Source: an uncultured virus (IMG/VR IMGVR_UViG_3300042387_001477) (taxonomy: Duplodnaviria > Heunggongvirae > Uroviricota > Caudoviricetes). Taken from it: a stretch of DNA of 64,000 bases. The notes under the pieces were generated by a model. It saw nothing but the letters and a program-made list of their open reading frames with translations, did not search any database and had not been told where the DNA came from. Positions within the stretch are counted from its first letter, which is position 1. Each line of letters starts with the position of its first letter. The stretch is taken from IMG/VR virus record IMGVR_UViG_3300042387_001477. One strand, given 5' to 3'. The position numbers and the translations under genes were made by a program. Of this stretch, positions 20,539 through 23,604 are shown one piece after another.

Positions 20539-20649
20539 AATTTGAAAATGATTAAGTACAGATTTTATTTATATTGTTAGGAACCATAACGTGGTTCGGT
20601 CCCTTCCCCAATATTATAGGGTAAAAGGTGGGGGCTGTCAACCCCCTTT

Positions 20650-20785
20650 GCAGGCTCGCCACTTGCCCTTTGACTGGAGGCAAGAAACCAGGCGGGAGTA
20701 AGCACTCCTCATCCGCACCAGTCGGCATATTTACTGTCCAATCCGACGAGGACTATTTGGGTCATGTTGACTCCACCAGGGTAAT
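20650..20785 (-). ncRNA. wcaG-like structured RNA (UGGYG-containing)
   Basis: Stems GTCGG/CCGAC, GCGG..GGAG/CTCC.CGC and CTTGCC/GGCAAG, with TGGTG or TGGCG directly after the first and third; upstream of the porin/hli operon. Family name from recall. Confidence 0.65.
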
Positions 20786-22363: not shown

Positions 22364-22481
22364 CTCCCCCGATAGGACTTGAACCTATAACCCATCGGTT
22401 AAGGAAAAAACTGGAATCGAACCAGAACTAAAGGAACCTTCTTTTCCACAGCCGATTGCTCTGCCATTGAGCTACAGGGGA
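22364..22481 (-). tRNA. tRNA-Asn(GUU) interrupted in the anticodon by a 46-nt tRNA-like insert
   Basis: TCCCCTG/CGGGGGA acceptor, TAGCTCAATGGCAGAGC D-arm, ATCGG/CCGAT anticodon stem, GGTTCAAGTCC T-arm; removing 22402-22447 gives a 72-nt tRNA with loop CTGTTAA. Confidence 0.9.
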
Positions 22482-22518
22482 ATAAATAGTTGGTATTAAT
22501 TTAAAAAGTTATACCAAC

Positions 22519-22848
22519 ATGAATAAAAAAGAAACTAGAACTTATGCTGATAGAAAAGCAAAAAATCCTAACTGGGCTAAAAAAATGACAGAAAGAGTAT
22601 CTGCAACTAGAAGAAAAAATGTATCTTTAATTAAAGAAGAAGCTGGAGGAAAATGCTGTATGTGTGGATACAACAAATGCACGGCAGCACTAGAGTTTCA
22701 TCATGTAGACCCAGATGCTAAAGAAGGTGGAATTATTGGTTCCACCGCATCTTTAGCAAAGCAAAGAGAGGAAGCAAAAAAATGCATTCTTGTCTGTGCT
22801 AATTGTCATCGTGAAATTCACTCTGACTTATCTATGTATCATAGATAA
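22519..22848 (+). CDS. HNH endonuclease (free-standing, homing-type)
   Basis: CCMCGYNKC..ALEFHHVDP...KCILVCANCHREIH; TAAATA at 22483-22488; antisense to the tRNA cluster. Confidence 0.9.
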   Translation: MNKKETRTYADRKAKNPNWAKKMTERVSATRRKNVSLIKEEAGGKCCMCGYNKCTAALEFHHVDPDAKEGGIIGSTASLAKQREEAKKCILVCANCHREIHSDLSMYHR

Positions 22849-22851
22849 AAA

Positions 22852-23074
22852 TTGTGGTAGGTGGGAATAACTTTGCCTATGTTATCCCTCTTTACTTCAT
22901 CCAGCCACAGAATACTAGACCAGCGAGAGGTTTTGGCACCTACGATTTTTAAGGGCAAGAATGTCCACCTACGATAAAATCTACGATGTGGCCGAGGGGA
23001 TCCTTTGTTTAATACAACGTTCCTTGTTGCACCCTTTACTACAGCATTCTAGTTTATCAGTCTAGGGCTCTTAG
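22852..23074 (-). ncRNA. Candidate highly structured non-coding RNA of unknown family
   Basis: No ORF in the supplied track; many complementary blocks (see findings); transcribed between a tRNA-like element and tRNA-Asn. Confidence 0.5.
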
Positions 23075-23148
23075 TACCTCTGGCTGGGAATCGAACCCAG
23101 TTTCCAAGTGCATTGTCTGCCTGTCCTTACCAATAGACTAACAGAGGA
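23075..23148 (-). ncRNA. tRNA-like RNA with a non-canonical anticodon arm
   Basis: CCTCTG/CAGAGG acceptor, D-arm with TGGTA, perfect CTGGG-TTCGATT-CCCAG T-arm; anticodon arm reduced to GCA-GACAA-TGC. Confidence 0.7.
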
Positions 23149-23555: not shown

Positions 23556-23604
23556 AGTGACCCCTCTGTTTGAGCATCGTCGATAGGCTTGAGGGGTGTT
23601 GATT

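What the first reader, a model, noticed from the sequence alone, without database searches (positions are those of the whole stretch)
22402..22848. HNH endonuclease beside the interrupted tRNA: candidate collaborative homing unit
Seen: a 109-aa HNH gene starts 38 nt from the tRNA-Asn 5' end, in the opposite orientation to the whole cluster, with its own TAAATA late promoter (22483-22488) and a GTTGGTA/TACCAAC hairpin ending right at its ATG. Established: free-standing phage homing endonucleases can cut the uninterrupted allele of a neighbouring gene while an intron protects their own allele (collaborative homing), and T4 SegB targets tRNA genes. Inference: the HNH cleaves insert-less tRNA-Asn genes of co-infecting phages, and the mini-tRNA insert is the immunity element, so the pair spreads together.
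Basis: partly seen in the sequence, partly recalled or inferred. Interest (0 to 1): 0.72.

Follow-up and report, generated by a model that had tools for sequence, protein, structure and literature searches.

The report
Homing nuclease beside tRNA-mimic intron
In this cyanobacterial virus a small selfish DNA-cutting gene travels as one block with an asparagine tRNA gene that is split by a miniature tRNA-shaped insert, which may both be spliced out by ordinary tRNA-trimming enzymes and shield the gene from the nuclease, though most relatives of the nuclease manage without the insert.

Summary
Observation confirmed. The 109-aa His-Me (HNH-type) gene, its late-promoter/hairpin leader and a tRNA-Asn split at the anticodon by a 46-nt tRNA-shaped insert form a ~487-nt block. 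A phage 98-99% identical in both flanks has only an intact host-type tRNA-Asn there, while a phage ~82% identical carries the block almost unchanged. All 52 testable close nuclease relatives abut tRNA-Asn, in three layouts (dN/dS 0.04-0.14): a tRNA-Asn-targeted homing endonuclease is likely. But 49 of 52 neighbour an intact tRNA, so the insert is not required. Those intact neighbours never carry the host-type anticodon stem (C29:G41 0/20 alleles versus 12/31 without nuclease); the interrupted allele does, which fits immunity by insertion, but its G44 is also carrier-type, so hitch-hiking remains open. The insert belongs to a wide class (48 distinct) whose ends follow tRNA 3'-processing rules; this phage encodes Rnl1/Pnk. 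No cleavage or splicing is shown. The scan noted this cassette before in other genomes, with split verdicts.

The parts
22364..22850 (.). Mobile block (about 487 nt): nuclease gene, its leader and the interrupted tRNA-Asn; replaces a 72-nt intact tRNA-Asn in near-identical phages
   Evidence: L287 flanks 98.0% and 98.8% identical, no nuclease; L297 ~82% identical region, block present
22519..22848 (+). 109-aa His-Me finger (HNH-type) endonuclease: long basic N-terminal helix, CxxC...FHH...CxxCH; the usual middle Asn is an invariant Lys88
22481..22488 (+). T4-type late promoter-like motif (ATAAATA), overlapping the first base of the tRNA on the other strand
   Evidence: consensus recalled
22489..22518 (+). 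Inverted repeat (GGTA..TACC hairpin) ending at the start codon; conserved in the clade
22448..22481 (-). tRNA-Asn 5' exon (acceptor 5' strand, D arm, anticodon stem 5' strand, first anticodon bases)
22402..22447 (-). 46-nt tRNA-mimic insert: 12-bp acceptor+T helix with TTCGA T-loop, 14-nt linker, one discriminator base, no CCA
22364..22401 (-). tRNA-Asn 3' exon (last anticodon base, anticodon stem 3' strand, T arm, acceptor 3' strand, discriminator; no encoded CCA)

Best explanation
[quoted passage not shown] Repair of the cut copies in the nuclease together with the carrier's own tRNA-Asn allele. Carriers avoid self-cleavage in two ways: usually by base changes in the anticodon stem, and in this lineage by a 46-nt tRNA-mimic intron that splits the site while keeping the host-type stem. 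The intron is removed from the precursor as if it were a tRNA (RNase P at its 5' end, RNase Z after its discriminator), leaving 3'-OH and 5'-P halves that the phage Rnl1 seals. This is facultative collaborative homing with a non-ribozyme intron. Shown: anatomy, linkage, block presence/absence, allele exclusion, intron class and boundary rule, ligase gene. Inferred: DNA cleavage, the site, protection by the insert, splicing.
For: 52 of 52 testable relatives at >=52% identity lie within 45 nt of tRNA-Asn in three layouts, so the constant neighbour is the tRNA, not a flank (S-WAM2, S-H38). dN/dS 0.04-0.14 in 13 of 14 pairs, one saturated. Empty site in L287/L294 holds an intact tRNA-Asn with the same 16-nt arm core; its 31-nt core occurs in Synechococcus and Cyanobium genomes. 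Intact alleles beside the nuclease: GG/CC stem 0 of 20, C29:G41 0 of 20; without it 7 of 31 (p 0.034) and 12 of 31 (p 0.0015); strongest of 103 position tests, permutation p 0.0115; the interrupted allele keeps C29:G41 and GG/CC. 0 of 119 viral loci with the intact host-type arm had this family in the flank fetched. A second, unrelated pair has the same build: divergent nuclease of this family (46% identity) beside a tRNA-Asn split at the same place by another mini-tRNA (L511, L653, L654, L663, L665). This family lies within ~210 nt of 7 of 25 other interrupted tRNA-Asn versus 1 of 22 interrupted tRNAs of other kinds (p 0.052). Insert identical in 4 of 4 copies while nuclease synonymous sites differ by up to 20%. 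Intron 3' ends match the outer tRNA's 3'-end style. Rnl1, Pnk kinase and Pnk phosphatase genes in this genome.
Against: 49 of 52 carriers have no insert. The top single discriminator is T44 (0 of 20 versus 13 of 31) and the interrupted allele has G44, so it may be immune without the insert; it also differs from the empty-site allele in D arm and acceptor stem. Counted by distinct arms the GG/CC contrast is 0 of 15 versus 4 of 23, p 0.14; alleles are related and no phylogenetic correction was made. 19 of 31 nuclease-less alleles are also non-C29, and only 1 of 12 nuclease-less cultured phages has the GG/CC arm. Closest insert homologues L521/L533 (carrier-type stem) and L668 have no such nuclease nearby; the nuclease near L516 is another subclade, 204 nt away with tRNA-Gly between. 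18 of 25 other interrupted tRNA-Asn had no family member in the flank held (often only 300 nt). Any homing endonuclease near interrupted tRNAs: 9 of 24 versus 9 of 42 control tRNA loci, p 0.25. Distant family members (42-49%) do sit beside intact host-type arms (L072/L804, L838). No spliced RNA was seen.
Confidence: 0.45

Rival explanations
1. Homing endonuclease of tRNA-Asn, but immunity comes from ordinary base changes in the co-converted tRNA allele (G44, D arm, acceptor stem), as in the 49 insert-less carriers; the tRNA-mimic intron is a hitch-hiker that the nuclease spreads but does not need.
For: 49 of 52 carriers intact; T44 exclusion and G44 in the interrupted allele; whole tRNA body replaced in the block; inserts without nuclease; no general excess of nucleases near inserts.
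Against: The only carriers with the host-type C29:G41/GG-CC stem are the 3 interrupted ones; a second independent divergent pair exists.
Confidence: 0.33
2. SegB-like relaxed nuclease: it cuts a motif shared by many tRNA genes (such as the T loop) or a site next to the tRNA, and the carrier survives through tight late, hairpin-limited, antisense-damped expression, not through a resistant allele.
For: T4 SegB recognises the T-loop motif, prefers the T2L tRNA-Asn gene, and T4 itself keeps cleavable sites (PMC2330249 Discussion); conserved promoter/hairpin leader; the protein is small with no separate large DNA-binding domain.
Against: Strict Asn adjacency in 52 of 52 and other subclades fixed beside Pro, Cys, Arg, Glu or Thr genes argue for isotype-specific sites; allele differences map to the anticodon arm and position 44.
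Confidence: 0.12
3. The insert is not spliced: the tRNA-Asn is a dead or decoy gene and the block is a nuclease with a broken target, not a collaboration.
For: No RNA evidence of the joined form; tRNA-Asn is dispensable in some cyanophages (1 of 15 cultured genomes lacks the motif).
Against: Exons fold perfectly; exact removal restores a 7-nt loop in 20 of 21 leaderless inserts, with trailers of N73, N73+1 or N73+CCA matching the outer tRNA's style; Rnl1/Pnk present.
Confidence: 0.05
4. The protein is an anti-host nuclease (tRNA-Asn RNA or chromosome) and the neighbouring phage tRNA is the resistant replacement.
For: Carriers' intact tRNAs differ from the host-type arm.
Against: A spliced product of this allele would regain the host-type arm and be sensitive at RNA level; structural neighbours are DNases; patchy presence in near-identical phages fits a selfish element.
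Confidence: 0.05

Closest known systems
F-CphI and the psbA group I intron of cyanophage S-PM2 (collaborative homing; PMC6083498, passages read)
   Same: Free-standing nuclease beside an intron-containing conserved gene in a cyanomyophage; intron proposed to block self-cleavage.
   Different: F-CphI uses an Endo VII motif and targets a protein gene; its partner is a self-splicing group I intron. Here the partner is a 46-nt tRNA mimic in a tRNA gene, most carriers lack it, and cleavage is untested.
T4 SegB (PMC2330249, abstract and first part of Discussion read)
   Same: Free-standing homing endonuclease in a phage tRNA cluster that cuts tRNA genes, with preference for tRNA-Asn of T2L; hairpin over the translation start.
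   Different: SegB is GIY-YIG, reads the T-loop motif with relaxed specificity and has no intron partner; this protein is His-Me type, 109 aa, strictly beside tRNA-Asn.
'Enigmatic' tRNA introns of Lak megaphages (Devoto et al., bioRxiv 10.1101/356790, passages read)
   Same: Anticodon-region insert in a phage tRNA that itself looks like a tRNA (tRNA-Thr(TGT)); Lak phages also encode a T4-type RNA ligase.
   Different: No mechanism, boundary rule or nuclease link was proposed in the passages read; the insert here is a minimal 46-nt acceptor+T helix in tRNA-Asn of a cyanophage.
PHROG 2255 / 3106 / 35854 HNH endonucleases; structural neighbours EcoKMcrA (6ghc), CBASS Cap5 HNH, IscB/Cas9 HNH
   Same: Zn-binding His-Me finger core (best VIA Z 4.7, rmsd 3.3, 65 aligned; McrA Z 4.0, rmsd 3.8, 67 aligned).
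   Different: No close solved homologue (no Foldseek match at E <= 0.001); Lys replaces the middle Asn; no characterised member with a mapped tRNA target was found in my searches.

Membership tests
HNH / His-Me finger endonucleases | beta-beta-alpha-metal fold with catalytic His and metal-binding His, Zn-binding CxxC pairs | tested here: met
   H61, H62, H97, C46, C49, C93, C96 invariant in 52 of 52; model pLDDT 86.5; top structural rows are HNH nucleases
HNH / His-Me finger endonucleases | Conserved middle Asn of the H-N-H motif; Pfam PF01844 above cut-off | tested here: not met
   Invariant Lys88 aligns with the Asn of McrA and group II maturase HNH; PF01844 17.4 bits versus cut-off 21.4. 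His-Me member, non-canonical motif.
Free-standing homing endonuclease | Patchy presence with a clean empty site in close relatives, next to a conserved target gene | tested here: met
Free-standing homing endonuclease | Late promoter and start-proximal hairpin typical of T4-type homing endonucleases | tested here: met
   arrangement described in PMC2988022; activity not tested
Free-standing homing endonuclease | Site-specific cleavage of the nuclease-less allele and biased inheritance in crosses | not testable with these tools
   needs protein and co-infection
Collaborative homing (F-CphI/psbA type) | Nuclease stands beside an intron-containing gene and both move together | tested here: met
   4 of 4 copies of the block hold both; second pair L511/L653
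Collaborative homing (F-CphI/psbA type) | The intron is what prevents self-cleavage | tested here: inconclusive
   C29:G41 exclusion favours it, G44 and 49 insert-less carriers do not
Collaborative homing (F-CphI/psbA type) | Intron is a self-splicing group I intron | tested here: not met
   46 nt, tRNA-shaped, no Rfam intron match
tRNA-mimic (nested tRNA) introns of phage tRNAs | 12-bp acceptor+T helix starting at the exon boundary; exact removal restores a 7-nt loop | tested here: met
tRNA-mimic (nested tRNA) introns of phage tRNAs | Excision and ligation in vivo | tested here: inconclusive
   Contigs of 4 runs gave no usable joint; the one 46-nt skip has a 24-nt side in a probable DNA run

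The most novel reading that the evidence does not exclude
Phages have a protein-spliced intron class that mimics a tRNA so that RNase P and RNase Z cut it out and a phage ligase reseals the host tRNA gene product; such introns are selected and spread as shields against tRNA-gene-specific His-Me homing endonucleases, this cassette being a minimal (46-nt) case of collaborative homing without any ribozyme, one move in a nuclease-versus-tRNA-allele arms race that also explains the unusual anticodon stems of cyanophage tRNA-Asn genes.
Probability: 0.35. Interest if true: 0.82.

Novelty: new variant of a known kind. Interest (0 to 1): 0.6.

Why it matters
Collaborative homing is described for self-splicing group I introns; a 46-nt tRNA mimic doing the same job would show a splicing route built from ordinary tRNA maturation enzymes plus a phage RNA ligase, and would give a function and a mechanism to the 'enigmatic' phage tRNA introns noted in 2019. 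The natural allele series (empty site, interrupted allele, 20 substituted alleles) and a 109-aa enzyme make one cleavage assay decisive. It also offers a second explanation, besides escape from host anticodon nucleases, for why phage tRNA anticodon stems diverge from the host's.

Tried and rejected
General rule that tRNA-mimic inserts sit beside homing endonucleases: 9 of 24 versus 9 of 42 control loci, p 0.25 (71 of 76 listed ORFs were scanned, one swapped for the opposite strand; two nested loci gave no ORF passing the filter) - not supported. Out-of-sample test of the exclusion rule with the second pair's nuclease: only 4 identical copies and relatives at <=46% full-length identity among 59 loci, so no test. 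RNA evidence: contigs of 4 of 19 listed runs; one RNA-library contig covers 22475-22976 without differences but contigs cannot show strand or splicing, and the 22401-22448 skip is probably another organism's tRNA. Rnl1 in other insert carriers: 0 of 9 searched, all incomplete records (14-64%), one further handle not held - uninformative. First insert regex missed even the known case through overlapping matches and was replaced. Absence of the 11-nt arm motif from the genome is uninformative (0.02 expected). Fold searches gave no close solved homologue. The careful tree did not finish; only the quick tree was used, many forks open. Oligomeric state was not predicted, so nicking versus double-strand cutting is open. 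Papers without relevant content: PMC7162821 (0 hits for intron, nested, anticodon, RNA ligase), 10.1101/2020.07.20.212944. tRNase reading rejected as least likely (see rivals).

Full report
Setting and observation. The window is part of a 172-kb T4-like cyanomyophage (psbA, wcaG and abiF RNAs, tRNA cluster); the closest cultured record over this region is Synechococcus phage S-CREM1. The tRNA-Asn (22364-22481, -) is split between the second and third anticodon base by 46 nt (22402-22447).

The protein. PHROG HNH families match at E 4e-23; Pfam HNH is below cut-off. In 52 aligned relatives C46, C49, H61, H62, C93, C96, H97 are invariant and the usual middle Asn is an invariant Lys88. The model (pLDDT 86.5) has a long N-terminal helix and a His-Me core; structural neighbours are HNH DNases, none close. 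dN/dS against 13 of 14 clade members is 0.04-0.14, one pair saturated. ATAAATA is kept in 17 of 18 aligned leaders and GGTA..TAC in 18 of 18, the promoter either just before or inside the hairpin, the layout described for T4-type homing endonucleases (PMC2988022, passages). The promoter consensus itself is recalled.

Linkage to tRNA-Asn. Of 273 relatives in viral contigs the best 80 were kept. Among the 54 at >=52% identity, 2 are cut by contig ends; the other 52 of 52 lie within 45 nt of a tRNA-Asn(GTT): divergent (7), downstream (15) or upstream with the stop codon inside the tRNA (30). S-WAM2 and S-H38 (71-75%) add two more. The quick tree puts the window's protein in a clade (support 99) that shows all three layouts, a second Asn-linked clade (100) beside it, and small groups fixed beside Pro, Cys or other tRNAs (careful tree unfinished). 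Since flanks change and the tRNA does not, the target most likely lies in tRNA-Asn (inference).

Mobility. L287 is 98.0% and 98.8% identical on the two sides but has a 72-nt intact tRNA-Asn in place of 22364-22850; L294/L296 likewise. L297 is ~82% identical over the region yet carries the block with a 99%-identical protein and an identical insert. The empty-site allele shares the 16-nt arm core with the interrupted one but has a different acceptor stem and D arm; its 31-nt core is found in Synechococcus and Cyanobium genomes among 120 capped matches (80 rows shown), i.e. it is host-type.

Is the insert the shield? Against: only 3 of 52 carriers have it. For: I compared intact tRNA-Asn alleles from 239 cyanomyophage loci chosen by the nuclease or by independent markers: 20 distinct alleles beside the nuclease (51 loci), 31 without (54 loci). 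The host-type GG/CC stem is 0 of 20 versus 7 of 31 (p 0.034; by distinct arm 0 of 15 versus 4 of 23, p 0.14). In a scan of 103 position/base tests the top signals are T44 (0 of 20 versus 13 of 31), A44 and C29:G41 (0 of 20 versus 12 of 31), permutation p 0.0115, not corrected for kinship. The interrupted allele has C29:G41 and GG/CC, which no intact carrier has, but G44, which is carrier-type. So the data fit immunity by substitution in most carriers and by insertion here, and also fit a passenger insert. None of 119 capped viral loci with the intact host-type arm had this family in the flank (69 with >=500 nt both sides, many probably prophage attachment sites), but distant members (42-49%) do stand beside such arms (L072/L804, L838), so the rule holds only for the two cyanophage clades. 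Because a spliced product would regain the host-type arm, protection by the insert can only act on DNA (inference), which argues against a tRNase.

The insert and its class. It folds as a 12-bp acceptor+T helix with a T loop, a 14-nt linker and one extra base; its folding energy alone is not unusual (z -0.06). Two capped scans for two T loops 21-36 nt apart (121 viral, 119 metagenomic stretches) gave 52 rows, 48 distinct tRNAs with a nested tRNA-like insert (rows needed >=10 of 12 inner pairs, so that figure is a filter). 21 have no leader: removal through a trailer of 1, 2 or 4 nt restores a 7-nt loop in 20 of 21; 11 of the 13 four-base trailers read N-CCA; the outer tRNA encodes CCA in 10 of those 13 and in 0 of the 7 with 1-2-nt trailers. 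27 have a 5-36-nt leader and mostly end after N73-C74, and 25 of 27 outer tRNAs also have C74. The inner 3' end thus mirrors how that phage's tRNAs end. RNase Z cuts after the discriminator leaving 3'-OH, and some RNase Z cut after CCA (PMC7479834, passages); RNase P cleavage at the helix 5' end and the 5'-P ends are recalled. These two cuts would remove exactly the 46 nt and leave ends that an ATP-dependent ligase joins. The genome encodes Rnl1 (E 5e-28), a Pnk-type kinase and a Pnk phosphatase outside the window; Rnl1 above cut-off was found in 0 of 15 cultured cyanomyophages (weak hit in S-CREM1) and in one close insert-less relative, so it is a lineage trait that could permit the insert. 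No splicing was observed.

Do inserts and nucleases go together elsewhere? This family lies within ~210 nt of 7 of 25 other distinct interrupted tRNA-Asn and 1 of 22 other interrupted tRNAs (p 0.052), which may only restate its liking for Asn. An uncapped scan (35 stretches) gave three kinds of leaderless Asn insert: this one (3 loci, all with nuclease), an unrelated one with a divergent 46%-identical nuclease (4 loci, same as L511), and L668 without. The closest insert homologues are L516 (nuclease of another subclade 204 nt off) and L521/L533 (none in 1139 nt upstream, 300-500 nt downstream). Homing endonucleases of any kind were not enriched near inserts (9 of 24 versus 9 of 42).

Comparison with what is known. 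Collaborative homing is F-CphI with the S-PM2 psbA group I intron (PMC6083498, passages; the original paper not read). SegB cuts tRNA genes at the T-loop motif, best in T2L tRNA-Asn, and T4 keeps cleavable sites (PMC2330249, abstract and first part of Discussion; PMC13096335, passages). A tRNA-like intron in Lak tRNA-Thr was reported without mechanism (10.1101/356790, passages; its Table S6 of intron sequences was not seen and may overlap my class). Nine searches (listings and abstract starts) found no paper on a nuclease paired with a tRNA-mimic intron or on RNase P/Z excision of phage tRNA introns; the library lacks most subscription papers. Earlier notes of this scan describe the same cassette in other genomes (one 'passenger', one 'mobile block') and nested mini-tRNA introns in a Lak-type phage; they are not independent support.

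Verdict. A tRNA-Asn-directed free-standing homing endonuclease moving with its tRNA is likely (about 0.85). That the tRNA-mimic insert is the shield is about even (0.45 for the full model, 0.33 for passenger). New variant of a known kind; interest 0.6, mainly because one cleavage assay and one processing assay would settle both the homing claim and the long-unexplained phage tRNA introns.

Noticed in passing
L491, L497, L525, L537, L550, L581, L585, L594, L600, L602, L421, L457 and others (27 distinct): Nested tRNA-like inserts preceded by a conserved ~25-33-nt leader that can form a small pseudoknot; 3' boundary mostly after N73-C74. No Rfam match for the leader in 10 loci scanned; could be a small ribozyme or nuclease signal.
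   Followed up: partly
L393:715-865: A complete tRNA-Phe(GAA) nested in the anticodon loop of a tRNA-Arg(TCT).
   Followed up: partly
window 23076-23147 (-) and 22851-23070: tRNA-like element called His(ATG) by ARAGORN but not by Rfam, with an unpaired anticodon stem, followed by ~220 nt of conserved non-coding sequence; highest contig depth in an RNA library (77 at 22947-23140). S-CREM1 has manA RNA at a comparable place; no manA hit here.
   Followed up: no
window 23560-23596 (-) and 20648-20755 (-): abiF RNA and wcaG RNA above Rfam gathering scores.
   Followed up: no
L211, L213, L215, L288, L064/L067, L844-L847, L812, L821: Other subclades of the same nuclease family end flush against tRNA-Thr, -Pro, -Val, -Cys, -Glu or -Arg genes, suggesting an isotype-by-isotype family of tRNA-gene homing endonucleases.
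   Followed up: partly
G000:C1:1935-4414 (outside the window; L486): Rnl1, split Pnk kinase and phosphatase genes with a deaminase-like ORF between; Rnl1 above cut-off in 0 of 15 cultured cyanomyophages searched.
   Followed up: partly
L297:2405-2475, L301:2500-2570: A second tRNA-Asn-like gene with an ATT anticodon in close relatives.
   Followed up: no
whole genome G000: The hexamer GTTAAC occurs 18 times against about 32 expected; probably restriction avoidance.
   Followed up: no
L532, L524: Loci with two interrupted tRNAs each (Lys and Asn in L532; two Asn in L524).
   Followed up: no
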